This document shows, piece by piece, positions 2,225-48,962 of a stretch of DNA of 64,000 nucleotides. A program made the translations under genes and the position numbers. The DNA is from an uncultured delta proteobacterium (GTDB lineage Bacteria; Desulfobacterota; Syntrophia; Syntrophales; UBA2185). The stretch spans positions 135,748 to 199,747 of the forward strand of contig CAVSPA010000006.1 of assembly GCA_963729715.1 (NCBI GenBank). Reading direction: 5' to 3'. The notes under the pieces are model-generated. The model did not search any database and was not told where the DNA came from. It worked only from the letters and a program-made list of their open reading frames with translations. Position 1 is the stretch's first letter. Each line of letters starts with the position of its first letter.

Positions 2225-3700
2225 AATTCTTGTAATCTTCACAACCCGATTTTACACCTTCATTATAGATTTTAAATGGTATTCATGGTAGCTTGTGTTT
2301 ACAAAAGGAAAATCGTACTGTCAATTTGATTGTGTGAATTTTTCATAGGCCACTTCTTGAAAGAAGGGCAGGTTCTTTTGCACTTTTCCTACGGGGTTTG
2401 ATCTCCAATGCAGTTCCATTTTTAAAGAGATAAAGGCCAGAAGACGATAGCAGGCAGACTCTCCGGCCAATATCTCCATGGACTTTGTTCTCCGTTTAAA
2501 TTCCTTGTTCAGCCGTTCAATGATATTTGTGGTTCTCAATGAAATCCACTCTTCCTTGGGGAAGTTGAAAAAAGATAAACATGCGTCAATGGATCTTTCT
2601 AAACAACTTACGGCAGAAGGGATATCCTTCTCCCATTTTCTTTTGAAGATTTCAAAAAATTCCAGCGCCGTCTCCTTCGAAGAGGCATAGAAAATGGTTC
2701 TTACATCATTCGCCACAGCCTGTTTCAGTTTCTTAGGCACCTTCACCAGAACATTCCGGGCAACATGGACCTGGCAGCGTTGGACCTTGGCCTTGGGAAA
2801 TTCTTCTTCAAAGACAGATTCCAGTCCTGATAAACCATCCATGATCCCCAAGACGACTCTCTGGCCATCCAATCCACGAACTTTCAAATCCTTGAAGAAT
2901 TCCCTCCAGGAGGAAGCAGACTCTTTGTCCCCGGCCTGCAAACCCACAACCAGCTTGTTACCTCCTTCTGTAACACCAATGGCCACCAGAACAGGTATTA
3001 ACTCAATGCTTCTTCCCACACGCATACGGAAATTCACACCATCCACAAAGAGATATTTGATGGGTTCCTGGGATAGATCTCTCATCCTCCACTTCTCAAC
3101 GGCCTCTGTCAGATCAGTATTTGCGTGGCTGATCTCTGTATGGGAAATACGCCGCCCGATCAATCTACGGGAGATCATGGAAAGACTCCGGGTACTGATT
3201 CCCGTTAAAAACATCAGGCTTAAATCCCGGCTTATCTCTTCCTCGTACTGCTTGCTCCGGGGAATAACATTGGTCTTAAAATCACCCTCCCGGTCTCGGG
3301 GAATTTTGACCTGTACCTCCCCAATGTCTTTTAATGTGAAGCTACGATCATAGGTGCCATTGCGATGATTTACCTCGCCCTTACCACGTTCATAGGGTTC
3401 TCTCCCCAGAAAATGGGTGAGCTCCGCATTCATCAGCGCTGTCAGATATTGCCCAACGGTCTTTTTGATGTCCAATCGCACCATCTCAAAAAGTTGCTCC
3501 GGCTGCTCCTGAATCTCCTTGAAAATCTCCTTAACTTCGGTTACTGTAATTTCCAGTTTCATGGCGCTTTCTCCTTTCTCTCAGGTTTTGGGATAAACCC
3601 TTGTAAAGGAAAAGCGCCTTTTTTTCTACCCTTTGAAATTCACACAAATTATTTTACACTGCCGGAAAATATAAGATGACTTGGTCACTTCCCCTCCAAT
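2225..3700 (-). mobile_element. IS256-family insertion sequence (boundaries approximate)
   Basis: Intact Mutator/IS256-type transposase ORF. Inverted 12-15 bp match TTGTGTGAATTT at 2327-2344 versus 3639-3656. The element ends could not be fixed without other copies. Confidence 0.6.
2321..3562 (-). CDS. IS256-family transposase
   Basis: 413 aa: ...YLFVDGVNFRMRVGRSIELIPVLVAIGVTEGGNKLVVGLQAGDKESASSWREFFKDLKVRGL...VHVARNVLVKVPKKLKQAVANDVRTIF...NIIERLNKEFKRRTK. Canonical IS256 transposase motifs. Confidence 0.9.
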   Translation of the reverse strand: MKLEITVTEVKEIFKEIQEQPEQLFEMVRLDIKKTVGQYLTALMNAELTHFLGREPYERGKGEVNHRNGTYDRSFTLKDIGEVQVKIPRDREGDFKTNVIPRSKQYEEEISRDLSLMFLTGISTRSLSMISRRLIGRRISHTEISHANTDLTEAVEKWRMRDLSQEPIKYLFVDGVNFRMRVGRSIELIPVLVAIGVTEGGNKLVVGLQAGDKESASSWREFFKDLKVRGLDGQRVVLGIMDGLSGLESVFEEEFPKAKVQRCQVHVARNVLVKVPKKLKQAVANDVRTIFYASSKETALEFFEIFKRKWEKDIPSAVSCLERSIDACLSFFNFPKEEWISLRTTNIIERLNKEFKRRTKSMEILAGESACYRLLAFISLKMELHWRSNPVGKVQKNLPFFQEVAYEKFTQSN

Positions 3701-6800: not shown

Positions 6801-8152
6801 AATTGATCGCCAGATTCGGGATGCGTGGTTTGCGTAAAAGTGAAGTTCAACCGCACGCTTTCGAAAGTACAGGACGGATTTGGATTAGAGGAGAAGAAAA
6901 GGTCATCATCGTACAGGCAGCGAGGATTTTTGATACCAATGGAAAAGTAGTCGGTGCCATTCAAACAGCGCAGGACATTACGGATCGCACCCGGCTTGAG
7001 GCGCAATTGCGTCAGGCCCAGAAGATGGAAGCCATCGGGACACTTGCCGGCGGAATTGCCCACGACTTTAACAATATTCTCAGCGCAGTTTTAGGCTATA
7101 CGGAAATGGCCCTTGGGGAACCCAAGCTGGACAGCCATCTCCGGCGTTATCTTGATCAGGTATTCAAGGCTGGAGAGCGGGCAAGAGACCTGGTGAAACA
7201 GATACTCTCCTTCAGCCGCCAGAGCGACGAAAGACCGCGCCCCCTGAGGGTCAGCCCCATCGTAAAAGAAGTAATGAAGCTCCTCAGGGCATCCCTGCCA
7301 TCGACAATAAGGATACGCCAGGATGTCCAATCCGAACCGGACACAGTGCTGGCGGATCCCGCTCAGATCCATCAAATACTGATGAATCTCTGTACCAACG
7401 CAGCATACGCCATGCGAGGGAGACAAGGCGAATTGAAAATGAGTCTCATCCCGATGAATGTCGAACCGCCAGACGATCTGATTATTCATCATGACCTATT
7501 CCCTGGCAGGTATCTCAAATTGACCGTAGGCGATACGGGGGTCGGTATAGATAAAGAGATCATGGGCCGGATATTTGATCCCTTTTTTACAACCAAAAAA
7601 CTAGGTGAGGGAACCGGCCTGGGGCTTTCCGTAGTCTATGGCATCGTAAAAAGCTATGGAGGCGCAATTACCGTGCAAAGCGAGATGGGAAAAGGGACCG
7701 AATTCAACGTATACCTCCCCTTGCTGACTGAAATTGAGAGTAAACAGGAAGCGAAGGTCGAGGTGCCTATTCCTGGAGGGAAAGAGCGCATCCTTTTTGT
7801 GGATGATGAGGCAGCCCTGGTTCAGCTTGCAACGGACATATTGAGCGCTCTGGGGTATGAAGTTACAGGCAGGACAAGCAGCTTGGATGCCTTGGAACTC
7901 TTTCGGACCCGCCCTGACAGTTTTGACCTTGTGATCACTGATATGACCATGCCGAACATGACGGGAAGTGAACTTGCCCAGCAGCTCATGCGCATCCGTC
8001 CCGATATCCCCGTCATCCTCTGCACTGGATTCAGTGAAGCAGTGACACTGGAAAAGGCACGGGCGATCGGTGTGAAGGAGTTTATCATGAAACCCATTGT
8101 TCAGCGTCAGATAGCTGAAGCCATAAGGCGCGTGCTAGATAAGAAGGAATAG
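3803..8152 (+). CDS. hybrid sensor histidine kinase/response regulator with ~8 PAS/PAC domains
   Basis: 1449 aa. Repeated PAS/PAC units each end in DITDRK(R/Q)AE. HisKA H-box IAHDFNNILSAVLGYTEMAL; HATPase G-boxes GDTGVGIDKEIMGRIFDPFFTTK and GTGLGLSVVYGIV; C-terminal receiver ILFVDDEAALV...DLVITDMTMPNMTG. Confidence 0.9.
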   Translation: MEDKNKTKEQLIEELNELRQCVAELKGSAEEIKRARVNQEKFTEAFLQNSIPVGITTLKEGRFVDVSNAFLKLMGRKREEVVGYTSIDIGFITEEQRVTFFDELNKKGRVENLEMKVGTEGGALRDGLFNAVTMNLHDEGYLLTVMTDISERKRMEETLIESEGRLMQAQAIAHLGSWEIDLTNQTMWASEEAFRIYGIEYTGPASAYMPLAEAQEVVHPEDRPRMDNALKALLQENRIYDQEFRIFRANDGELRVIHSRADLLFSEERLPVKVFGTIQDITDRKQAEEKLRESEERYRHLVKHAPAGIYEVDFTTLKLLSVNDAMCRYTGYTREEFLSMDPMQLHTEESLKSLIQRHANILAGEPVPDSIEYQLKRKDGSEFWALLNNRFSYGPNNRITSTVIVHDITESKRAQDAQIEQLNFLQVLMDTIPIPVFFKDTKGIYLGCNRACETFFGPRDQLVGKTVYDVSPKDIADVYYRADLELFNNPGIQIYETVATDKTGARHNVIFDKATYQDKNGNLAGLIGAIVDITDRKRAEDALQASEEKYRAIIENMQEGYHEVDLNGNFTFVNESTCRMLGYEREELLGMNYRQYADEEDNRKVYQVYNRVYQTGEPVENFEWQIIRKDGDRRDIEVSISLIRDMDDNPTGFRGIVRDTTDRKRAEQELEKAEKRYRSIFENAMEGIYQSTPGGRFLQVNPAMARIYGYDSPDDMEHSVTDIAKQVYVNPDDRKYLKEILEKNDHIEKNEYQVRRKNGDEIWVSNNARAVRDNDENILYFEGLVQDITERKQTEEALRKSEANFQRIFDESPIGAAIVAPDYRFTRVNEAMCRMMGYSQEEFASLRFHDITHPDHLGSDAEQVRRLASGETERYETEKRYIRKDGNIIWGKLSVQAIRDAREQILYFLPMVVDITIRKKMEETLKAERERLASILDGIPVPTLVIDRKRHVLLWNSNNEIYTGIAKEEVLGKPLDLSSIFRDKVSPTVAELIMEMGDEELIARFGMRGLRKSEVQPHAFESTGRIWIRGEEKVIIVQAARIFDTNGKVVGAIQTAQDITDRTRLEAQLRQAQKMEAIGTLAGGIAHDFNNILSAVLGYTEMALGEPKLDSHLRRYLDQVFKAGERARDLVKQILSFSRQSDERPRPLRVSPIVKEVMKLLRASLPSTIRIRQDVQSEPDTVLADPAQIHQILMNLCTNAAYAMRGRQGELKMSLIPMNVEPPDDLIIHHDLFPGRYLKLTVGDTGVGIDKEIMGRIFDPFFTTKKLGEGTGLGLSVVYGIVKSYGGAITVQSEMGKGTEFNVYLPLLTEIESKQEAKVEVPIPGGKERILFVDDEAALVQLATDILSALGYEVTGRTSSLDALELFRTRPDSFDLVITDMTMPNMTGSELAQQLMRIRPDIPVILCTGFSEAVTLEKARAIGVKEFIMKPIVQRQIAEAIRRVLDKKE

Positions 8153-8200
8153 CTGCAGGCAGAGTAGTGCCGCCCCGCAAGTTTTATGCGATTCAAACTA

Positions 8201-8236
8201 AAAAAGGCAGAGCCATTTCTGGCGCTGCCTTTTTGT
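8201..8236. terminator. bidirectional rho-independent terminator between convergent genes
   Basis: AAAAAAGGCAGAGCC-ATTTCT-GGCGCTGCCTTTTTG: stem-loop with an A-run before and a T-run after, lying between the hybrid kinase (+) and the RRM gene (-). Confidence 0.6.
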
Positions 8237-19100: not shown

Positions 19101-20759
19101 ATGAAGTGTCCTAAATGCCAGTTTGAAAATAGAGATGGGGCGAAATTCTGCAAAGATTGCGGTCACAAATTGGAGGCCCTATGTTCCCAGTGCGGAGCTA
19201 TAAATCTGCCCGACAGTAAATTTTGCGATAGTTGCGGACGGAGATTAGATGAAACTGGACAAAAAGAAAAGGCAATTCCCGCACCTGAGGGCGAGCGCAA
19301 GCACGTCACAGTATTGTTTTCCGATGTGTCCGGCTATACGACTATGTCTGCGAGACTTGATCCTGAAGAAGTGAAGGAGATCATGGGGCAGATCATAGGT
19401 GGCGTAAACAGGGTCATTAAGCAGTATGGGGGATTCATGGAGAAGTATGTCGGTGATGCCGTCATGGCTCTCTTCGGTGCTCCTTTTGCCCAGGAAGATG
19501 ATCCGGTAAGGGCGATAAAAGCCGCCGGAGATATCCATGGCGTCGTTAAATCCCTGAGTCAGCGGTACGAAGAGAAGATCGGGAAACCGCTGGCAATGCA
19601 TACGGGCATCTGTACCGGCTTAGTCGTAACAGGTAACGTCAATTTAGAAAAAGGGACCCACGGAGTATTGGGAGATACGATCAACGTGGCTTTCCGGCTC
19701 TCTGCCCTGGCAAAGCCAGGCGAAATCATTGTGGACACTGGCACTTATCGCCGAGCGGCGGGACATTTCAATTTTGATACTCTCGAGCCGGCCACTGTGA
19801 ATGGCAAGACAGAACCCGTAAGGATTTTCAGGGTTATATCACCCGAGGAAAAACCCACCAAGACTCACCGCCTGTCCGGCATGAGGGCGGAACTTATAGG
19901 GCGTAAGGTGGAGATGGCTCAATTACAAGGAAGCCATATACAATTTGAAACAGGGGGCCGTGTTCTCCATCGTGGGCGATGCCGGCACAGGGAAAAGCAG
20001 GCTCATCGAAGAGTTCACGGCTGCATTGGACATCAAGGAGATTCGGTGAAGGGGGGGGACATTGTTATCCCTACAGCCAGAACATCCCCTACTTTCCCCT
20101 CATCAATCTCCTGAGCCGGGCATGGCAGATTCGCGAGGGTGACTCGGCCGATATGGTAAGACAAAAGGTCGAAGCCGGGGCGAAAAATCTGATCGGAGAC
20201 AGGAAAGACCGTATACCCTATGTGGGAAGCCTTTATTCCCTCAACTACGCGGAGATCGAAAGCGTCAGCCCCCATTTTTGGAAGGCTCGTCTTCATGAGA
20301 CGGTAAGGAAGATTTTTTCGGCGGCCCTTCCACGCATAGGTCCGACGGTCATCTGCGTTGAGGATCTGCATTGGGCAGATCCGTCCTTTGTAGAACTATT
20401 GCGTCACGTCCTTGCTGATTTCAGGTTTCCGGCGATCGTCCTGTGTACCTACAGACCTTCGTTTAGTCTCTTCACAGTCCATCAGGTGAACGGTCTGGGT
20501 AAGTTGTACCAGGAGATCAGACTCTATGATCTCTCAAAGGGCGGAGGAGAGTTTCCAAAAGGCCATAGAGGTAGCAAGAGAGATCGGGGCTAAGGGCGTG
20601 CTCGGTCAATGTTATCTCGACTTGGGGCAACTATACAAGGTCAAGAAGAAAACCGATCAGGCGAGGAAATGCATTGCCGACGCCGTGGAGACTTTTAAAG
20701 AGTGCGAGGCGGATGTCTTCCTGCAACAGGCCAGAGAGTCTTTAGAAGCTTTGATTTAA
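19101..20759 (+). pseudogene. adenylate/guanylate cyclase - AAA ATPase - TPR protein, disrupted by two frameshifts and an internal deletion
   Basis: Double zinc-ribbon N-terminus and class III cyclase domain (VTVLFSDVSGYTTMSARLDPEEV...YVGDAVMALFGAP...LGDTINVAFRL) in frame A to ~19930. Walker A (AVFSIVGDAGTGKSRLIEEF) is in a second frame. After the G8 run at 20051-20058 a third frame carries ...ICVEDLHWADPSFVELLRHV.... A terminal TPR (20526-20759) is in a fourth frame. Total length is ~550 codons against ~1100 aa for intact homologues. Confidence 0.75.
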
Positions 20760-23113: not shown

Positions 23114-23340
23114 GTAAAAAGGTAATAATAAACAAGCGATCCACGACCCACCCAATTTTTGAGCCGGCTCAATGCATTATAATAAAGTTTTGATCTCGAC
23201 TTGCTAGTCAGTGAGTTTTAGACACAGCAATTAACAACATTTTACCCCGGAAGAAGGAGATAAAGATGGTGATGAGATGGTTACTGAAGGGTCTGTTTCT
23301 TTCTCTGCTCTTTGTTGACATATTTAGTGAGAAAATTAGC

Positions 23341-23369
23341 TTGACATAGAAGAAAAATCACTCTTATAC
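23341..23369 (+). promoter_or_regulatory. sigma70-like promoter TTGACA-N18-TATACT ahead of the HMA selenoprotein gene
   Basis: Read directly from the sequence, ~70 nt upstream of ATG 23436. Confidence 0.4.
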
Positions 23370-23435
23370 TTTGCCAACAAAAAAAGGACTTCTTATCAAT
23401 TATAATCTAACCCAAAAATAGTGAGCAGAATACCC

Positions 23436-23747
23436 ATGAAGCGGAGGAAACATTCCCTTATCGTCTGTCTTTTGAGTGTGATGCTCCTGCTCGTCACGTT
23501 ACAACCCCTTTTTGCTGCCGAAAGAATTATCAAAATGGTGGTTCCCGGATGCGAGTGACAGGACACGGCTAACAGGGTACGTGATGCCCTGAAGGAAATC
23601 CCGGGCGTGCTGGAGTATGATGCGGATCAATTTACTCACGAAGTAATGGTAAAATTCGACGACACAAAAACCAGTATCAATAAGATTGTAGAGGGTCTGG
23701 CCAAGCAAGAATTCCCGATCGAAGGGCAGCCGAAGATCACCCAGTAA
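23436..23747 (+). CDS. periplasmic heavy-metal-associated (HMA/MerP-like) protein with in-frame UGA: candidate selenoprotein with a G-C-E-U motif
   Basis: Manual translation: MKRRKHSLIVCLLSVMLLLVTLQPLFAAERIIKMVVPGCE[TGA]QDTANRVRDALKEIPGVLEYDADQFTHEVMVKFDDTKTSINKIVEGLAKQEFPIEGQPKITQ*. The HMA beta-alpha-beta-beta-alpha-beta pattern continues in frame across the TGA at 23556-23558. The TGA aligns with the first Cys of GMxCxxC. The gene is not in the ORF track. Confidence 0.7.
23573..23591 (+). promoter_or_regulatory. SECIS-like hairpin CAGGGT-ACGTGAT-GCCCTG, 14 nt downstream of the UGA
   Basis: 6-bp stem with a 7-nt loop containing GUG. Its size, spacing and CAG...CTG ends match the hairpin after the second UGA at 24254-24272. 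Confidence 0.6.
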
Positions 23748-23945
23748 GCTTGAAGAGATGCGGGGTGATTAATACACGCTCAAGACTATCTGACAAGTGG
23801 TTATCATAATGTGAACGAGGGACTATATTATGAAAAGCCGACAGTTTACATGGATATGGTTGTTTCTCGGCTTTTTTGTCTCTTTTACGCTGGCCCAAAC
23901 AATAGTAGCCAATAAAGAGACTACGACTCTCATAAGGAGGAATAA

Positions 23946-24371
23946 GTGAGAAAAACAGTATTTTTTTTGGTCATTGTGGTGCTTGCGGTGTGTTTTGCGG
24001 GAACGGCTGCTTTCGCCGCGACGGAGCTCACCCTCGAGAGCGTACAGAAGATATCTGTTGACGGGTTGAAAGCGCAGCTTGGGAATCCCGATGTCATCGT
24101 TATCGATGTGCGGACGGCCCACGACTGGGAGGGCAGCAAGACCAAGATCAGGGGGGCTGTTCGCGAGGACACCCACAATATTGCCTCCTGGATCAACAAG
24201 TATCCAAAAGAGAAAACACTCGTTTTTTATTGCAAGTGACTGAATGAAGCGACCAGTGCCAGTGTGGCACTGCAGTTCATGGCGAAAGGATACAAGAAAG
24301 TATACGCAGTGAAAGGTGGATGGAGGGCCTGGGAGGTAGCGAAGTACCCAGTCGAACCCAAGGGGGAATAA
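23946..24371 (+). CDS. periplasmic single-domain rhodanese with in-frame UGA in the active-site loop (Y-C-K-U): candidate selenoprotein
   Basis: GTG start with AAGGAGG. Signal peptide MRKTVFFLVIVVLAVCFAGTAAFAA. ...DVIVIDVRTAHDWEGSKTKIRGAV...KEKTLVFYCK[TGA]LNEATSASVALQFMAKGYKKVYAVKGGWRAWEVAKYPVEPKGE*. The rhodanese C-terminal consensus (G(Y/F)knVy.l.GG..aW...g.P) continues in frame after the TGA at 24237-24239. The ORF track stops at the TGA. Confidence 0.75.
24254..24272 (+). promoter_or_regulatory. SECIS-like hairpin CAGTGC-CAGTGTG-GCACTG (or 8-bp stem with GUG loop), 14 nt downstream of the UGA
   Basis: Perfect inverted repeat CAGTGCCA/TGGCACTG. Same 19-nt length, same 14-nt offset, and the same CAG...CTG and GTG-loop features as 23573-23591. 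Confidence 0.65.
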
Positions 24372-24402
24372 ATAGCTGCTTCCGAGATGCCGACCTCTGG
24401 AC

Positions 24403-24768
24403 TTATTGGATCTTCTTGAAGGTCATCTCTTTGGAGCCTGGGAGGGTCATCCGAATGGTGTCCTTCTCTATCTTTCCCACAATCACTCCCCCTGCTCTGG
24501 TGTTCACCCGCAACTCCCCCTGCTTGATGTACCACATAAAGGGGATCTCTATGAAGGTGCCCGCTACCTCATCAGAGGGCACTCTCCACAGACCATCTCC
24601 ATTCGCCTTCAATTCCAGGACGCTCTCACCCTGCTTCACCGACTCTTTCCCCGCCGCTTTGTATACCCCCACGTATTTATCTTTGGACTCGCATGACAGC
24701 AGAAGCATCAGAAGCACGCAAAGACCAACCATCAATACATATCCATGATATCTTGACGTGTGCATCAT
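24403..24768 (-). CDS. lipoprotein, hypothetical
   Basis: Lipobox LLLSC in the signal peptide MMHTSRYHGYVLMVGLCVLLMLLLSC. Last gene of the minus-strand operon. Confidence 0.6.
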   Translation of the reverse strand: MMHTSRYHGYVLMVGLCVLLMLLLSCESKDKYVGVYKAAGKESVKQGESVLELKANGDGLWRVPSDEVAGTFIEIPFMWYIKQGELRVNTRAGGVIVGKIEKDTIRMTLPGSKEMTFKKIQ

Positions 24769-24776
24769 AGGCCACC

Positions 24777-25280
24777 TTATCGCGATCCTGTAAGAGCAGC
24801 GACCCTGCCCTTCATGCTGGGCAGTAAGCCCCCCCTGCGGAAGATGAACAACCTGTCACAGAAGTAAATCTGTATCGTGAAGAGGAGCAGCACTACGTCC
24901 TCACTGACTTTCTTCCACCCAATGGGCTCCCCCACCGTATCATAACATCCACAGGTAATTGACGCTCCCCAGTACATGTTGGTCAGGACCATCGCGGTAA
25001 ACATGATCAACATCAAACCGATGAGGGTCGCTGCCGCCCTCGTCCTCAGCCCGATGATTAGAAACAGCCCGCTTACAAACTCGATCCACGGCAATAGTAC
25101 AGCCCCCACATTAAGAAACCAGTACGGGATCAGTTGATAGGCTGCCACCGCTTCCGCAAACTGTGCAGGGTGAGGTATCTTGCTCACGCTCGCGTACAGA
25201 AAGAAATAGCCCACGTAAACCCTTAGAATGAGCGCCAGATACGGACTCCTCACAATCCGCTTTAGAAATGTCCGGATCAT
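24777..25280 (-). CDS. MauE/DoxX-family membrane protein with C-terminal TCGCYD motif
   Basis: 167 aa, 4 TM segments, CGC near the end of the last helix, as in MauE-type thiol-disulfide proteins. Confidence 0.7.
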
Positions 25281-26203
25281 TCCTTCCCTTTCTCCTCCTC
25301 GACCGGATAGCCCTTTTTCTCCCAGGCCACCATCCCCCCCTCCAACACCTTCACATCCTTATGCCCACGAAGAAGGAGCTTGTCTGCCAGCTCCCAATCG
25401 TAGAGTTTGCTGAATGTTCCTCCATACACAATCACCTTTTTCCCCTTCTCATCCTCTCCGTAGGCCATCATGTACACGATATCAAAAAGAGAGAGCGGTA
25501 TGCTGATCGCCCCCTGGATATGCTTCTTTTCATAGAAGGCTTCAGGACCCGCATCCACGATGAGCGCTTCCCCCTTCTTCGCCTCTTCCATCGCCTGAGT
25601 AGCGCTGATCTCGGAAATCGCTTTCCTGTCAGGAAACTTCGGAAACAGGGGTATCCCGTTCGGGTTGGACTTATTGAATACGAGGGCAAGAATTACGCTC
25701 ACCCCGATCAGTAGCAGAAAATCAAACCAGGATATCCGATGTGCCTTGTAAAGTTGCTGCGCTTCCTTCTCAATGATCTCCTCATCCCTCAGAAGCCATC
25801 CCGACATCTGCTTCACAAAGGCTAGGGAAATATGGGGAAAGTCCTTCAGAATATGCTCAAACTGCACTTTAGAAAGCACCATCAGACAAGTCTCTTCCAC
25901 CGCCTCCACGTTCGCTGATCTCACCTCCCCTGTAAGCAGGGCCATCTCGCCAAAGCTTTCCCCCGCTCCCAGCACAGATAGGTCCGTCTCCAATCCTTCA
26001 GCGTCCTTCCTGAACACCCTCACTTTTCCTGAATGAATAATGTAAAACTTGTCCCCTGGATCCCCCTGCCTGAAGATGATCGTACGCCGTGATACCACCT
26101 GCTTCTCCATAGCCCGAGTGAGCTCACCCCACTTCTCTTTGGGCAATTGCTCGAAAAGGCTGCTTCCCGTAAGTCCCTCTTTCCCGCTCTCGTTCTCGCT
26201 CAT
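25277..26203 (-). CDS. cyclic-nucleotide-binding domain - TM - rhodanese-domain protein; the rhodanese domain lacks the catalytic Cys
   Basis: cNMP-binding signature ([22 protein letters not shown]), one TM segment ([18 protein letters not shown]), and a C-terminal rhodanese fold. The fold reads [25 protein letters not shown]...[47 protein letters not shown], with GGTFSK where C(R/K)xGx(R/T) is expected. Confidence 0.8.
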
Positions 26204-46221: not shown

Positions 46222-46956
46222 ATGTTGATTAAAAGAGCCGTCGGTATTATTTTAGTGGTTACTGCCTTTGCCATCGTTCTCGGATGTGCAAGCTACGAAT
46301 CGAAGGTAGTGCCCTTCAAAATGCCCGCAGCCTACCCCAATGCAAAGGAAGTTGCAGGGGCAACCATCGCCGCCCAGGCCTATAGCGACAAGAAAGAAGC
46401 AGAGGACGCTTTTGGATTTGATATCATCGGTGCGGGTTTGATGCCTGTGAGGATCATTTTTGATAACAAGGGGAAGCACCCGATTGATATAGTGGCCAAT
46501 CAAACGTACCTGGTCGATGCAGATAATAACCTCTGGCCCGTGCTCGAGGATAGGATGGCATACGATCGCATACAGAAGAAAACGGAGTTCGGAAAGGTGG
46601 CCCCGGAAGCAGGAAAATACGGGGTGCTGGGCGGCATTGCCGGCGGCGTCATCGGCGCGGCAATAGGCATTGTATCCGGCCATAATGTCGCTGATGCGGC
46701 AATGAAAGGGGCGGCCTTGGGCGCGGCCGCTGGGATCACGGGCGGTGGCTTAAAGGGAATGAGCGATACCGATGTTCAGTCACAAATCAGATCGGACCTC
46801 GAAAAAAGGTCCCTCGAACGCCGTTCCGTCATGCCCGGAGAAATTGCGCAGGGGTTCATATTCTTCCCGGGCGAATCGAAAAAGGCTGTCGAGCTGCGGC
46901 TGCAGATCAAAGAGGCTGATACGGGGAAAAGCTATCCGCTCGTCATGAAATTTTAG
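46222..46956 (+). CDS. lipoprotein with Gly-rich TM-like segment, hypothetical
   Basis: AGGAGG RBS. MLIKRAVGIILVVTAFAIVLGC lipobox. The track start at 46201 precedes the RBS. Confidence 0.6.
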   Translation: MLIKRAVGIILVVTAFAIVLGCASYESKVVPFKMPAAYPNAKEVAGATIAAQAYSDKKEAEDAFGFDIIGAGLMPVRIIFDNKGKHPIDIVANQTYLVDADNNLWPVLEDRMAYDRIQKKTEFGKVAPEAGKYGVLGGIAGGVIGAAIGIVSGHNVADAAMKGAALGAAAGITGGGLKGMSDTDVQSQIRSDLEKRSLERRSVMPGEIAQGFIFFPGESKKAVELRLQIKEADTGKSYPLVMKF

Positions 46957-48486
46957 ATTGTTCAATGACGCATTCATGAGAATCCTCCCCTCTATGCGGG
47001 GGGAGATGGGAGAATGCTTTTCGAGATAGGAAACGAGAACATCTCTCAGAGCCGTGCCGTACGTAAAATTCTTCCCTTCCTTGAAGGGCGAAAATGCATC
47101 TCCGCCGGCGGCAAGGTAATCGATTGTCGTTACCGTATAGATCTTTTCAGGAGCTAAGGATCGTCTTCCTATATGTACTTCCCGAACCCGGGAGCCCGCC
47201 GGTTCAGATAGATCGTACCTTATTTCCATGCCCGAAACCTGCAGGATGCCATGCTCCAGCTTCGCGTTCTGCTCGAGGATTTCCAGGATTTGCTTTCCTG
47301 TAAGTTTCATAGTGACAAGGCTGTTATCGAACGGCAAAAGCGTGAAGACCTGCTCCATCGTAATTCTCCCTTTTGGGATATTGTTCCTGATAGCGCCACT
47401 GTTGATGAAGGCCATATCCGCGCCTGTCCTCTTCCGCATGACGTCGCATATAAGATTTCCTATGTTGGATTCTCGCTGGTGATACCTTACCAGAGGAACG
47501 GAAGTCTCACCGACAACTTTGCCGTATTCTTTCTCTATCCGGCCATAATAGGCTTGAACGATTTTTGCCAACTCCTTATCATATGGCCTGTCCCTGCCTG
47601 CCATAACTTTTTCGAGCTCTTTCTCTTCCGTATGGCTGATGATCTTCCCGGTATCGGGATCTATCTTGAGTTTTAAGACGCCGAGATATAATCCGTAGGC
47701 GCCCGCCTGGACGATTATTGTGTTCCCAGCCGCCACGGGATTCTCCAATGCCGTGTGACTGTGTCCGCCCACAATGATATGGATGCCGGAAGTTCGCTGA
47801 GCCAAGTCTTTGTCGGCGTCTAATCCGAGGTGGGAAAGGACGATGATGATTACGGCCCCTTCGTCCTTTGCCTTTTCTATGAACCGGGGAAGAACGTCTT
47901 CGGGCCTATCAACGGTCATGTGTTTAAGGCGGCCAGGTGCCGTGATGCGCGGAACTTCGGGCGTGGTCATGCCTATAATCGCGATTTTCACTTTCTTTCT
48001 TTCGACTATAATGTATGGCTTAACACCTGGGAGATATCTGCCTCTTTCATCCTTTATATTTGCGGAGAGATAGGGAAATCTGGACCAAGAGACAAGCTGC
48101 CGGAGAGTATCCATTCCCCAATCGAATTCGTGATTCCCGATGGCCATCGCATCGAACTTCAGAAAGTTCATCACATCTGCCACGGATCGGCCCTTGAAGA
48201 GGTTGGAGACGGGCGTTCCTTGGAACATGTCCCCAGCGGAAAGCAGCAAAATGCCGTCAGGATTTTTTGACCGCTCTTCCTCGATCATACGGGCGAGATA
48301 GGCGGCGCCTCCGACCATTTGCCTTTCACCTGAAGTTTCTTCAATATAAGGCAGAATGCGGCCGTGCGTATCGTTTATATGGAGGATCGTTAAATCGACA
48401 GGCACAGCTTCCTTCGCGAGAAGGGCCGGTGGAAAGGAAAAAATGAGAAGCGAAAGAAGGATAATTATCCTCGCCATCCTTTTCAT
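46780..48486 (-). CDS. periplasmic bifunctional metallophosphatase/5'-nucleotidase (UshA-like)
   Basis: Signal peptide MKRMARIIILLSLLIFSFPPALLA. LHINDTHGRI, GNHEFDWG and GGHSHT metallophosphatase motifs, plus a 5'-nucleotidase C-terminal domain. The last ~60 codons overlap the convergent lipoprotein gene antisense. Confidence 0.8.
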   Translation of the reverse strand: MKRMARIIILLSLLIFSFPPALLAKEAVPVDLTILHINDTHGRILPYIEETSGERQMVGGAAYLARMIEEERSKNPDGILLLSAGDMFQGTPVSNLFKGRSVADVMNFLKFDAMAIGNHEFDWGMDTLRQLVSWSRFPYLSANIKDERGRYLPGVKPYIIVERKKVKIAIIGMTTPEVPRITAPGRLKHMTVDRPEDVLPRFIEKAKDEGAVIIIVLSHLGLDADKDLAQRTSGIHIIVGGHSHTALENPVAAGNTIIVQAGAYGLYLGVLKLKIDPDTGKIISHTEEKELEKVMAGRDRPYDKELAKIVQAYYGRIEKEYGKVVGETSVPLVRYHQRESNIGNLICDVMRKRTGADMAFINSGAIRNNIPKGRITMEQVFTLLPFDNSLVTMKLTGKQILEILEQNAKLEHGILQVSGMEIRYDLSEPAGSRVREVHIGRRSLAPEKIYTVTTIDYLAAGGDAFSPFKEGKNFTYGTALRDVLVSYLEKHSPISPRIEGRILMNASLNNLKFHDERIAFPRISLFDLQPQLDSLFRFAREEYEPLRNFSGHDGTAFEGPFFEVRSDL

Positions 48487-48962
48487 AAGGAAACCTCTGA
48501 AATCTTTTGAGTCCGTCTTCGCCCGTATCATGTGTAGATCCTTATCTAAGAAATAAAGAAATGTTATCCAACATATCCAGCCCATCGCGATGTTGCAAGC
48601 CCTAAAGTAACAGCTTTTTACGAAGTTATTAGTTATATAATCCTGAAAAATGAAGGTAATAATAAGTAATAATTTGTAACTTTTTGTATTGCAATGTTGC
48701 TCTCATTGTGTATAATGTCATGCCACAAGGATATGAAGAACGAAGTCCATGTTCATTCTGGGCGGGAAAAGCACGAAATCTTCAATGAAGAATCCTGGGG
48801 AAGCACCTTCTGTGCTTTTCTTTCATAACGCAAGAGAGTTTAACAAAACCGTATTAATGCTGTCATGAAGCTGTAAGACTCTGAGAGTATATTGACCGCA
48901 AAGGAATGATCGTTCCACAAATTATGCCCGGGAAAGATCATTAAATAATAGGAAGGGAGGAG

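What the first reader, a model, noticed from the sequence alone, without database searches (positions are those of the whole stretch)
23436..24371. Two adjacent unannotated selenoprotein candidates (periplasmic HMA protein and periplasmic rhodanese), each with a C-x-U motif and a matching SECIS-like hairpin 14 nt after the UGA
Both genes are invisible or truncated in the ORF track because of in-frame TGA codons at 23556-23558 and 24237-24239. In both, domain-conserved sequence continues in the same frame after the TGA: the HMA alpha-helix ...ANRVRDALKEIPGV... and the rhodanese C-terminus ...KGYKKVYAVKGGWRAWEVAKYPVE. Each TGA is followed at exactly 14 nt by a 19-nt hairpin that begins CAG, ends CTG, and has GUG in the loop (CAGGGT-ACGTGAT-GCCCTG and CAGTGC-CAGTGTG-GCACTG). 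That geometry is what a bacterial SelB-binding SECIS needs. The Sec sits two residues after a Cys in both proteins, G-C-E-U in the metal-binding loop and Y-C-K-U in the rhodanese active-site loop, which suggests selenenylsulfide redox chemistry. Both proteins carry signal peptides.
Basis: partly seen in the sequence, partly recalled or inferred. Interest (0 to 1): 0.85.

Follow-up and report, generated by a model that had tools for sequence, protein, structure and literature searches.

The report
Two adjacent exported selenoprotein genes
Two neighbouring small genes that appear broken by a stop codon most likely encode exported proteins containing selenocysteine: one belongs to a known rhodanese selenoprotein family, and the other is a mercury-binding-protein-like form missing from the selenoprotein lists I checked.

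Summary
ORF 23436-23747 (HMA/MerP-like) has an in-frame TGA at 23556-58. ORF 23946-24371 (rhodanese) has one at 24237-39. Each TGA is followed, 14 nt later, by a 19-nt hairpin that meets the published bacterial SECIS model. Only about 2% of random TGAs in the window do.

Comparative data support selenocysteine:
- The TGA is kept in all 27 HMA sequences compared (window plus 26 loci) and in all 7 readable syntenic rhodanese orthologues, plus two distant homologues.
- Purifying selection is the same after the stop as before it.
- Synonymous variation is suppressed inside the HMA hairpin.
- The rhodanese hairpin carries a compensatory A-U to C-G change.
- A second assembly has the same TGAs.
- TGA ends 10 of 25 Pfam-supported genes, so the code is standard.

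In both proteins Sec occupies the canonical active Cys position, with an extra Cys two residues upstream.

The rhodanese is a member of NCBIfam NF041203, an already catalogued C-x-U selenoprotein family. The HMA protein (C-x-U-x-x-T) passes no curated family cutoff and is not in a 2026 catalogue of 119 families. It belongs to a wider signal-peptide MerP-like group with C-x-C and C-x-U forms.

The Sec machinery could not be checked, and function is inferred.

The parts
23341..23370 (+). Sigma-70-like promoter (TTGACA-18-TATACT, 11 of 12 matches) upstream of the HMA-like gene
   Evidence: Consensus scan only. The segment 23316-23363 is 98% identical to the stretch just upstream of the HMA gene in L018. 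Function not shown.
23436..23747 (+). HMA/MerP-like selenoprotein gene: 103 codons, Sec at codon 41, motif V-P-G-C39-E-U41-Q-D-T44
   Evidence: Translation. Pfam HMA 36.3 bits. Best PDB matches by sequence and by fold are MerP 1afi and 1osd. AF2 model pLDDT 86 with beta-alpha-beta-beta-alpha-beta order. The in-frame TGA is kept in all 27 sequences compared, window included. pN/pS is 0.205 after the TGA and 0.200 before it.
23436..23516 (+). Predicted Sec-type signal peptide (MKRRKHSLIVCLLSVMLLLVTLQPLFA|AE)
   Evidence: Read from the sequence. Helix 2-21 in the AF2 model. pN/pS is higher here, 0.42, as expected for a signal peptide. No signal-peptide predictor was run.
23556..23558 (+). UGA read as selenocysteine (U41)
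   Evidence: Invariant TGA in all 22 distinct CDS. It aligns with the first Cys of MerP's CxxC. Cys stands here in relatives P0140, P0141, P0147, P0149-P0151 and others; genuine Cys codons were confirmed for P0140 and P0150.
23573..23591 (+). bSECIS-type hairpin CAGGGUA-CGUGA-UGCCCUG, 14 nt after the UGA
   Evidence: -8.7 kcal/mol. The upper 5 pairs are kept in 22 of 22 sequences and the loop is [C/G]GUGN. Third-position entropy is about 0 at codons 48-51 against about 0.8 at other four-fold sites, Mann-Whitney p = 0.0016. An equivalent hairpin is present at the same offset in a relative of about 40% identity, L033.
23830..23949 (+). 39-codon ORF: remnant of the signal-peptide end of a periplasmic Sec-peroxiredoxin gene that follows the HMA gene in other loci
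   Evidence: tblastn hits to 17 loci. The intact gene in L014 from 4365 reads ..FFPAAFTPV*TGE... Window 23403-23933 aligns to L014 3968-4483.
23946..24371 (+). Rhodanese selenoprotein gene: 141 codons, GTG start, Sec at codon 98, motif F-Y-C96-K-U98
   Evidence: Translation. NCBIfam NF041203 rhodanese_LYCAU 169.3 bits, cutoff 115. Seven readable syntenic orthologues and two distant homologues keep the TGA. 100 of the 120 best database homologues end exactly at [FY]C-x.
23946..24017 (+). Predicted signal peptide (MRKTVFFLVIVVLAVCFAGTAAFA|ATE)
   Evidence: Read from the sequence (A-x-A site). No predictor was run.
24237..24239 (+). UGA read as selenocysteine (U98)
   Evidence: It aligns with the catalytic Cys of rhodanese 6mxv (CGGGFRS against ULNEATS). 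TGA is conserved in L005, L009, L011, L018, L019, L020, L026, L037 and L038.
24254..24272 (+). bSECIS-type hairpin CAGUGCCA-GUG-UGGCACUG, 14 nt after the UGA
   Evidence: -11.4 kcal/mol. The top pair A-U becomes C-G in L005, L020 and L026 through two non-synonymous changes, which is compensatory. The same hairpin and the same 14-nt offset occur in homologues of 44-53% identity, L037 and L038.
23266..23349 (+). 27-codon remnant of a second Sec-rhodanese gene (motif Y-C-T-U), lost from the window by a deletion of about 1.39 kb
   Evidence: The intact gene is in L018 (2335-2760) and L005. The deletion breakpoints were mapped by blastn.
24403..26203 (-). Syntenic convergent neighbours: lipoprotein-like ORF, MauE/DoxX membrane protein, and a cNMP-binding/membrane/Cys-less rhodanese-domain protein. 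A functional link is only inferred.
   Evidence: Pfam. The same order follows the rhodanese in L005, L009, L018, L020, L026 and L032.

Best explanation
Both ORFs are intact genes for small exported (periplasmic) selenoproteins of a Syntrophales-like deltaproteobacterium. During translation, the UGA at codon 41 (HMA-like protein) and at codon 98 (rhodanese) is read as selenocysteine. A stem-loop 14 nt downstream, with a G-U-containing apical loop, recruits SelB-GTP-Sec-tRNA(Sec) to the ribosome. That step is inferred from the standard bacterial mechanism.

In each protein Sec replaces the canonical reactive cysteine: the first Cys of the CxxC loop in the MerP fold, and the catalytic Cys of the rhodanese loop. 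In each, an additional Cys lies two residues upstream, giving C-x-U.

The rhodanese belongs to the known family NF041203.

The HMA-like protein has lost the second Cys of CxxC (now Thr) and gained a Cys in place of the conserved Met. I think it most likely binds a thiophilic metal or metalloid ion (Hg, Cu(I), As(III)-like) between Cys39-S and Sec41-Se in the periplasm, as MerP does between its two cysteines. It may then hand the ion on or sequester it. An alternative use of the same pair, as a Se-S redox couple, is listed as a rival.

Shown here: the genes, the conserved UGA, the conserved hairpins, the fold, and the residue correspondence.
Inferred: Sec insertion itself, export, and ligand or chemistry.
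For: - UGA conservation with intact coding. All 27 HMA sequences compared (22 distinct CDS) and all 7 readable syntenic rhodanese orthologues have the same in-frame TGA. For the HMA gene, pN/pS is 0.205 downstream and 0.200 upstream.
- The TGAs are not an assembly error. L032, an independent ENA assembly 99.4% identical to the window, has both.
- The genetic code is standard. TGA terminates 10 of 25 Pfam-supported genes in the window.
- SECIS. Both hairpins meet the published model. The background rate is 11 of 600. The HMA stem is kept in 22 of 22 sequences, with suppressed synonymous change (p = 0.0016). The rhodanese stem has an A-U to C-G compensatory change and persists at 44-53% protein identity. 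The HMA, rhodanese and paralogue loops share CGUG.
- Cys/Sec interchange. Wider HMA relatives carry C-x-C where this protein has C-x-U. Genuine Cys codons were confirmed for P0140 and P0150. 'W' was confirmed to be TGA in P0001-type calls and in P0142, P0143 and P0158.
- Family membership. NF041203 scores 169 bits against a cutoff of 115 and is listed in the catalogue.
- MerP likeness. TIGR02052 is the best NCBIfam model for 32 of 33 relatives. 1afi and 1osd are the best sequence and fold matches. The closest Cys form lies beside arsR-arsD-arsA.
- Lineage. The closest genome hits are Syntrophales and uncultured deltaproteobacterium MAGs. Deltaproteobacteria are a selenoprotein-rich group (PMC5029168).
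Against: - No selA, selB, selC or selD was seen. The window and 18 related loci contain no tRNA. Pfam scans of the 10 ORFs flanking the finding and 20 larger ORFs elsewhere in the window found no sel gene.
- Rfam has no match at either hairpin.
- Folding energies are unremarkable against shuffles.
- The HMA hairpin shows conservation and one-sided changes only, with no double compensatory change.
- For function, no mer, cop or ars genes lie next to the HMA gene in the window or in the loci examined. Its constant partner is a redox-type selenoprotein (rhodanese or peroxiredoxin), which fits a redox role at least as well as a metal role.
- The protein fails the MerP and UxxU family cutoffs.
Confidence: 0.85

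Rival explanations
1. Same genes and same Sec insertion, but the HMA-like protein is not a metal binder. Its Cys39-x-Sec41 pair cycles between selenol/thiol and an intramolecular selenenylsulfide. It would act as a small periplasmic redox or chalcogen (S/Se) carrier for the selenoprotein encoded next to it, either the Sec-peroxiredoxin or the Sec-rhodanese.
For: In every locus the gene directly downstream of the HMA gene is a periplasmic Sec redox protein. It is a rhodanese C-x-U in 8 loci and a peroxiredoxin T-x-x-U in about 17. The second metal-binding Cys is replaced by Thr, giving U-x-x-T, a motif listed for redox selenoproteins such as GPX-like and OsmC-like. Both adjacent proteins carry the same C-x-U arrangement. 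No metal-resistance genes are adjacent. MauE/DoxX and a TlpA-like thioredoxin occur nearby.
Against: The fold and the closest sequences are MerP and CopZ, not any oxidoreductase. No Pfam thioredoxin-type family and no NF041383 match appeared among hits at E <= 1. No HMA-fold redox carrier is known to me (own knowledge). Adjacency alone does not show a partnership.
Confidence: 0.3
2. The TGAs are genuine stops: either pseudogenes from nonsense mutations, or short functional peptides of 40 and 97 residues. On this view the downstream in-frame similarity is decaying sequence.
For: Most public gene calls stop there: P0018 and P0019 for HMA, and about 100 of 120 rhodanese homologues.
Against: The TGA is at the same codon in all 27 HMA sequences and all 7 readable rhodanese orthologues. 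Selection downstream is as strong as upstream (pN/pS 0.205 against 0.200). A stop at that point would cut each domain at its active loop. The truncated calls are what standard gene finders produce for selenoproteins.
Confidence: 0.02
3. UGA is read by something other than Sec-tRNA. Candidates are genome-wide reassignment (code 4 or 25, Trp or Gly) or local near-cognate read-through inserting Trp or Cys.
For: Several pipelines translated these genes with 'W'.
Against: TGA ends 10 of 25 Pfam-supported genes in the window, and the long housekeeping ORFs among them have no internal TGA. The 'W' calls are on short contigs, and the DNA there is TGA. The position aligns with catalytic or metal-binding Cys, and Cys-containing relatives exist. 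A conserved SECIS-type hairpin follows at a fixed distance.
Confidence: 0.04

Closest known systems
Rhodanese-like selenoprotein form 3 (NCBIfam NF041203 'rhodanese_LYCAU', motif C-x-U; first predicted by Kryukov & Gladyshev, listed in PMC13188914 Table 1)
   Same: The window's rhodanese scores 169 bits against a cutoff of 115 over the full model. It has the same [LF]-Y-C-x-U motif. It is small and carries a signal peptide. Its hairpin and 14-nt offset match those of distant members. UxU double-Sec variants among the homologues match the form described for Olavius symbionts (PMC1976440).
   Different: Nothing essential. Lys stands where the family name has Ala (FYCKU against LYCAU); K, S, A and N all occur among homologues.
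MerP, the periplasmic Hg(II)-binding protein of mer operons (TIGR02052; PDB 1afi, 1osd)
   Same: Signal peptide plus a single HMA domain of about 72 residues. Best sequence match (33 bits, ungapped over 65 residues) and best fold match (TM 0.81-0.87). Shared V-P-G before the loop and F-D-D-T-K-T/A-S in strand 3 and helix 2.
   Different: The loop is C-E-U-Q-D-T rather than M-T-C-x-x-C. Sec stands at the first Cys, Thr at the second, and Cys replaces Met. The score is 42.8 against a cutoff of 92.55. No merT, merA or merR is nearby.
Known HMA-type selenoproteins: UxxU metal-binding protein (NF041115), MerT/CopZ fusion selenoprotein (NF045683), UxxC in cation-transporting ATPase, and 'MerP' listed in the GOS selenoproteome (PMC2398784)
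   Same: HMA fold with Sec in the metal-binding loop. 19 of 33 wider relatives give weak NF041115 matches and 13 of 33 give NF045683 matches.
   Different: There is one Sec rather than two, and the motif is C-x-U-x-x-T rather than U-x-x-U or U-x-x-C. The NF041115 score is 18.9 against a cutoff of 95. The protein is a stand-alone exported domain rather than a fusion. The GOS 'MerP' entry gives no motif or sequence, so identity with it cannot be judged.
Other C-x-U selenoproteins in the 2026 catalogue (thioredoxin-like Sec.1 PF13192, UshA-like NF041198, ferredoxin-thioredoxin reductase NF041072) and the VPGUxxT thioredoxin-like family NF041383
   Same: Cys two residues before Sec. The local string V-P-G-(C-E)-U-x-x-T resembles VPGUxxT.
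   Different: No Pfam or NCBIfam match to any of them appeared among hits at E <= 1. The fold is ferredoxin-like HMA, not thioredoxin.

Membership tests
Bacterial selenoprotein gene (Sec-UGA plus bSECIS) | In-frame UGA conserved among orthologues, with the coding frame under selection on both sides | tested here: met
   HMA: TGA in all 27 sequences compared, pN/pS 0.205 after and 0.200 before. Rhodanese: TGA in all 7 readable syntenic orthologues and 2 distant homologues.
Bacterial selenoprotein gene (Sec-UGA plus bSECIS) | [quoted passage not shown] | tested here: met
   Loops CGUGA and GUG, spacing 21 and 22 nt, -8.7 and -11.4 kcal/mol. Conserved, with one compensatory pair in the rhodanese. 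No Rfam model matched.
Bacterial selenoprotein gene (Sec-UGA plus bSECIS) | Cys-containing homologues aligning Cys with the UGA position | tested here: met
   HMA: C-x-C relatives including P0140, P0141, P0147 and P0149-P0151, with genuine Cys codons confirmed for P0140 and P0150. Rhodanese: U aligns with the catalytic Cys of PDB 6mxv. No Cys form was found among the 120 closest homologues.
Bacterial selenoprotein gene (Sec-UGA plus bSECIS) | selA, selB, selC (tRNA-Sec) and selD present in the same genome | not testable with these tools
   None in the 64-kb window or in 18 related loci. The rest of the genome could not be read. The lineage (Syntrophales / deltaproteobacterial MAGs) belongs to a selenoprotein-rich group.
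Bacterial selenoprotein gene (Sec-UGA plus bSECIS) | Selenium physically present in the full-length product | not testable with these tools
   Needs 75Se labelling or mass spectrometry.
NCBIfam NF041203 rhodanese_LYCAU | Whole-protein score above the curated cutoff, with the [LF]YC-x-U motif | tested here: met
   169.3 bits against 115, model positions 3-126 of 126. Motif FYCKU.
Pfam HMA (PF00403) | Score above the gathering threshold and a beta-alpha-beta-beta-alpha-beta fold | tested here: met
   36.3 bits against 24.8. The AF2 secondary-structure order and PDB neighbours are all HMA domains.
MerP (TIGR02052) | Score above the equivalog cutoff | tested here: not met
   42.8 bits against 92.55.
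MerP (TIGR02052) | G-M-T-C-x-x-C Hg(II)-binding loop | tested here: not met
   The loop is G-C-E-U-Q-D-T.
MerP (TIGR02052) | Located in a mer operon with merT, merA and merR | tested here: not met
   The ORFs within about 4-5 kb on either side and the larger ORFs elsewhere in the window show no mer genes. None appeared in the ORFs scanned in the related locus L007 or in the tblastn synteny comparison.
UxxU metal-binding selenoprotein (NF041115) | Score above the cutoff and two Sec in a U-x-x-U loop | tested here: not met
   18.9 bits against 95, with a single TGA.
VPGUxxT thioredoxin-like selenoprotein (NF041383) | Match to the family model | tested here: not met
   Not among the NCBIfam hits at E <= 1. 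The fold is HMA.

The most novel reading that the evidence does not exclude
The HMA-like gene may represent a broad, so far uncatalogued class of exported MerP-fold proteins. In this class the classical C-x-x-C is replaced by [C]-x-[U/C]-x-x-[T/S], and Sec and Cys forms interchange across many lineages. On this reading the proteins work as periplasmic selenol-based redox or chalcogen carriers, not as metal chaperones, and are dedicated to an adjacent Sec-peroxiredoxin or Sec-rhodanese. That would be a new job for the HMA fold, and part of a small recombining 'selenoprotein cassette' locus.
Probability: 0.25. Interest if true: 0.6.

Novelty: new variant of a known kind. Interest (0 to 1): 0.4.

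Why it matters
Selenoprotein genes are routinely mis-annotated. Here the public gene calls are either cut at the TGA or translated with Trp under the wrong genetic code.

The rhodanese adds nothing new beyond one more member of NF041203.

The HMA-like protein adds a Sec form of the MerP fold with a shifted ligand pair (Cys-x-Sec, with Thr replacing the second Cys). This form is absent from NCBIfam 20.0 and from a 2026 catalogue of 119 families. It has many Cys and Sec relatives, which would support building a new family model.

A Se-S site in the periplasm of anaerobic soil and peat bacteria is relevant to how such organisms handle Hg, Cu, As or reactive sulfur and selenium species.

The locus is also a compact example of selenoprotein gene turnover. 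A Sec-peroxiredoxin has been swapped for a Sec-rhodanese, and a second Sec-rhodanese has been deleted.

Tried and rejected
- Rfam, at gathering thresholds on the whole window and in E-value mode on 23300-24500: no SECIS or other relevant family. Uninformative, because bacterial SECIS elements are diverse.
- tRNA-Sec search with ARAGORN in the window and 18 loci: no tRNA at all.
- Search for sel genes by Pfam, covering the 10 ORFs flanking the finding and 20 larger ORFs elsewhere in the window: none. They are housekeeping and signalling genes.
- Folding z-scores: not significant, so not used as evidence.
- Scan for other read-through candidates in the window: only these two are convincing. The UshA-like ORF 46780-48585 was checked because a UshA-like C-x-U selenoprotein family exists; it has an ordinary stop and no Sec extension.
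- Neighbourhoods of type-b loci (L007, L014) and of wider relatives (L033, L036, L039-L042): no consistent metal-resistance or redox context beyond the adjacent Sec-Prx.
It was repeated with database homologues only.
- Pairing of the HMA gene with the rhodanese in distant genomes (L037, L038): absent, so the adjacency is specific to this clade.
- Literature searches for an HMA or MerP C-x-U selenoprotein: only a bare 'MerP' line in the GOS table, with no motif.
Full report
**1. What is in the sequence**

The region reads as the first stage described.

- ORF 23436-23747 (+) translates to MKRRKHSLIVCLLSVMLLLVTLQPLFAAERIIKMVVPGCE*QDTANRVRDALKEIPGV...KITQ. The in-frame TGA is at 23556-23558.
- ORF 23946-24371 (+) has a GTG start with AGGAGG 7 nt upstream. 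It translates to ...KEKTLVFYCK*LNEATSASVALQFMAKGYKKVYAVKGGWRAWEVAKYPVEPKGE. The TGA is at 24237-24239.
- With Cys substituted for the stop, Pfam places one HMA domain (residues 36-89, 36.3 bits) and one Rhodanese domain (residues 38-130, 52.7 bits) across the stops.

Each TGA is followed, after exactly 14 nt, by a perfect 19-nt hairpin:
- CAGGGUA-CGUGA-UGCCCUG (23573-23591, -8.7 kcal/mol)
- CAGUGCCA-GUG-UGGCACUG (24254-24272, -11.4 kcal/mol)

**2. Is this more than chance?**

The published bacterial SECIS model requires four things (PMC13188914):
- a 3-9 nt apical loop on a stem of at least 4 bp;
- G in one of the first two loop positions;
- 16-37 nt between the UGA and the loop;
- MFE <= -7.5 kcal/mol.

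Both hairpins comply, with spacings of 21 and 22 nt. I implemented a strict version (perfect helix only) and applied it to 600 random TGA trinucleotides of the window. Eleven qualified, or 1.8%. On the other hand, the folding energies of the 55-nt stretches are ordinary compared with shuffles (z = -0.85 and -1.06). Rfam has no matching family. The case therefore has to rest on comparative evidence.

**3. Comparative evidence, HMA-like gene**

A protein search returned 19 close homologues at 70-83% identity. All either stop at ...VPGCE or show 'W' at the critical position. Reading the DNA shows that 'W' is TGA, translated by gene callers under code 4.

Scans of one genome per species and of JGI metagenomes added further loci. 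In 27 sequences, of which 22 are distinct CDS, the TGA is invariant at codon 41.

- Selection. Pooled pairwise pN/pS is 0.200 for the mature part before the TGA and 0.205 for the 62 codons after it. The signal peptide is at 0.42.
- Stem. The five upper base pairs of the hairpin are intact in 22 of 22 sequences. The loop is [C/G]GUGN.
- Synonymous sites. Four-fold sites inside the hairpin (codons 48-51) have near-zero third-position entropy. Other four-fold sites average about 0.8 bits (Mann-Whitney p = 0.0016). That pattern is expected if an RNA structure is under constraint on top of the coding sequence.
- Stem variation is one-sided only (U-G to U-A); no double compensatory change was seen.
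- A relative of only about 40% identity (L033) has a TGA at the same codon and can form an equivalent hairpin at the same place (AGGGUA-GGUUC-UAUCCU, read from the sequence; RNAfold's minimum-energy fold of that stretch pairs it differently).

**4. Comparative evidence, rhodanese**

- Eight loci carry the same HMA-then-rhodanese arrangement. One of them (L015) is cut off before the Sec codon; the other seven all keep the rhodanese TGA.
- In L005, L020 and L026 the top stem pair A-U is replaced by C-G. This happens through two non-synonymous substitutions (Ser-Val to Arg-Ala). It is a compensatory change that preserves the helix.
- Homologues of 44-53% identity from unrelated contigs (L037, L038) have the TGA, the 14-nt spacer and the same GUGCC...GGCAC stem.
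- Of the 120 best database homologues, 100 end exactly at [FY]-C-x. About nine end at ...LVFY, which is the UxU double-Sec form described for Olavius symbionts (PMC1976440). Four read through with 'W'.

**5. Excluding artefacts**

- L032 is an independently assembled ENA contig, 99.4% identical to the window over 15.5 kb. It has identical genes with both TGAs.
- Among 25 Pfam-supported genes of the window, the stop codons are TAA 11, TGA 10 and TAG 4. UGA is therefore a normal terminator here, and the code-4 translations in databases are artefacts.
- Pseudogenes are excluded by the selection data.

**6. Where Sec sits**

The HMA-like protein aligns without gaps to MerP (1afi, 1osd). V-P-G-C-E-U-Q-D-T lies over V-P-G-M-T-C-A-A-C. 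Three things follow:
- Sec41 takes the place of the first metal-binding Cys.
- The second Cys is Thr44.
- Cys39 replaces the conserved Met.

An AlphaFold2 model of homologue P0001 (83% identical to the window protein, with Trp at the Sec position) has pLDDT 86. It shows an N-terminal helix, consistent with a signal peptide, then beta-alpha-beta-beta-alpha-beta. Residues 36-41 lie in the loop before helix 1. Its best PDB neighbours are MerP (TM 0.81-0.87), followed by CopA, CopZ and Atx1 domains.

In the rhodanese, the ungapped alignment with PDB 6mxv puts U98-L-N-E-A-T-S over the catalytic loop C-G-G-G-F-R-S. Sec is therefore the catalytic residue, and Cys96 is an extra residue at position -2. 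Both proteins share the arrangement 'extra Cys, x, Sec at the canonical reactive position'.

**7. Relation to known families**

*Rhodanese.* It is a clear member of NCBIfam NF041203 'rhodanese-related (seleno)protein' (169 bits, cutoff 115). [quoted passage not shown] It is already known.

*HMA-like protein.* It passes no curated NCBIfam cutoff:
- MerP, 42.8 against 92.55;
- UxxU_metal_bind NF041115, 18.9 against 95;
- no match to the VPGUxxT family NF041383.

The catalogue has no PF00403-based C-x-U family. Known HMA-type selenoproteins are the UxxU protein, the UxxC ATPase domain, a MerT/CopZ fusion (NF045683), and a bare 'MerP' line (two sequences, no motif) in the GOS selenoproteome (PMC2398784).

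A profile search of 1.8 billion cluster representatives found 303 relatives with E <= 0.001. Many of the best 150 listed are signal-peptide proteins of about 100 residues. Their loops fall into these classes:
- C-x-C-x-x-[T/S], for example P0140 at 59% identity and P0150; genuine Cys codons were confirmed for these two;
- C-x-'W'-x-x-T, where 'W' is TGA; confirmed for P0142 and P0143;
- [I/M]-T-'W', including G-M-T-U in P0158;
- [I/M]-T-C-x-x-[S/T].

The window's protein is therefore the Sec form within a wider MerP-like group. That group has abandoned the second Cys, and Sec and Cys interchange at the first one. This is the classical signature used to call selenoproteins.

**8. Context**

- Lineage. 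The closest genome hits are Syntrophales and 'uncultured delta proteobacterium' MAGs.
- Promoter. A strong sigma-70-like promoter match (11 of 12) lies at 23341-23370, in a segment that is 98% conserved.
- Type a loci (8). These have HMA, then Sec-rhodanese, then convergently a lipoprotein-like ORF, MauE/DoxX and a cNMP-binding/membrane/Cys-less rhodanese-domain protein. The window has this arrangement.
- Type b loci (about 17). Here the HMA gene is followed by a periplasmic Sec-peroxiredoxin (FFPAAFTPV-U-TGE).
- Peroxiredoxin remnant. The window retains a 39-codon remnant of that peroxiredoxin's N-terminus (23830-23949) just before the rhodanese start.
- Second rhodanese remnant. A 27-codon remnant (23266-23349) is left from a second Sec-rhodanese (Y-C-T-U). 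That gene was removed, together with a TlpA-like thioredoxin, by a deletion of about 1.39 kb relative to L018.
- Overall. The locus is a small, recombining cluster of exported Sec proteins.
- Metal genes. No mer, cop or ars genes are adjacent, although the closest Cys form lies beside arsR-arsD-arsA.

**9. Mechanism and its limits**

Shown:
- two intact, conserved reading frames through UGA;
- conserved SECIS-type hairpins at a fixed offset;
- the MerP and rhodanese folds;
- the residue correspondence.

Inferred from the established bacterial pathway (SelA, SelB, SelC, SelD):
- SelB-dependent Sec insertion;
- export.

The Sec machinery could not be examined. There is no tRNA and no sel gene in the window or in 18 related loci, and the rest of the genome could not be read.

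For function, I favour a periplasmic soft-metal or metalloid-binding role for the HMA-like protein, using a Cys39-S/Sec41-Se pair. The support is that MerP is the nearest relative in every comparison. A Se-S redox or chalcogen-carrier role serving the adjacent Sec-Prx or Sec-rhodanese is a serious rival, which I put at about 0.3. It rests on the invariable pairing with a redox selenoprotein and on the U-x-x-T motif.

**10. Verdict**

The rhodanese is a new member of a known family. The HMA-like protein is a new variant of a known kind: an HMA/MerP-type selenoprotein with a shifted C-x-U-x-x-T site. It deserves a family model and a metal-versus-redox test. Interest is moderate (0.4). New bacterial selenoprotein subfamilies are found regularly, and nothing here challenges the known recoding mechanism.

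Noticed in passing
window 23266-23349 (+); L018 2335-2760; L005 about 7800-8236: This 27-codon ORF (MVMRWLLKGLFLSLLF...) is the N-terminal remnant of a second exported Sec-rhodanese (motif Y-C-T-U-HDEATSA, with its own CGUGC-loop hairpin). That gene is intact in related loci. The window has a clean deletion of about 1.39 kb, which also removed a TlpA-like CxxC thioredoxin gene.
   Followed up: yes
window 23830-23949 (+); L014 4365-4760; L002 1038-1562; L007 from 5910: This 39-codon ORF is the signal-peptide remnant of a periplasmic Sec-peroxiredoxin (FFPAAFTPV-U-TGE, with a longer SECIS-like structure). That gene follows the HMA gene in about 17 other loci. In the window the rhodanese gene has taken its place.
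   Followed up: partly
window 24403-26203 (-): A conserved convergent gene trio: a lipoprotein-like ORF, a MauE/DoxX membrane protein, and a cNMP-binding/membrane/rhodanese-domain protein. The active-site loop of that rhodanese domain has no Cys (..[13 protein letters not shown]..), so it is probably a sensor rather than an enzyme. The trio is syntenic in L005, L009, L018, L020, L026 and L032.
   Followed up: partly
database proteins P0001-P0016, P0024, P0033, P0142, P0143, P0158 (loci L002-L004, L033, L036, L039-L041): Public metagenome gene calls translate the Sec-TGA as Trp. The caller evidently chose genetic code 4 on short contigs. This produces spurious 'W' residues at Sec positions in large protein collections.
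   Followed up: yes
rhodanese homologues P0058, P0088, P0090, P0093, P0095, P0104, P0108, P0116, P0129: About nine of the 120 closest rhodanese homologues end at ...LVFY, two codons earlier than the rest. This implies a U-x-U double-Sec form, as reported for Olavius symbionts.
   Followed up: no
L034 1385-5232; L035 1519-5366: The closest all-Cys relative of the HMA-like protein (P0140, C-E-C, 59% identity) lies convergent to an arsR-arsD-arsA cluster and downstream of a sigma-54 activator. This hints at a link to metalloids.
   Followed up: no
L001 7333-9867: In a contig that shows frameshifts in the HMA gene, the gene upstream of the HMA homologue is called as a fusion of cytochrome bd subunit II with a pyridine-nucleotide-disulfide oxidoreductase. 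This could be a real fusion or an assembly or calling artefact.
   Followed up: no
window 19101-20593 (+); window 2321-3562 (-): An adenylate-cyclase/zinc-ribbon ORF overlaps an AAA_16 ORF in another frame. The same region is also split in L032, so this may be a disrupted large signalling gene. A Mutator-family transposase lies at 2321-3562.
   Followed up: no
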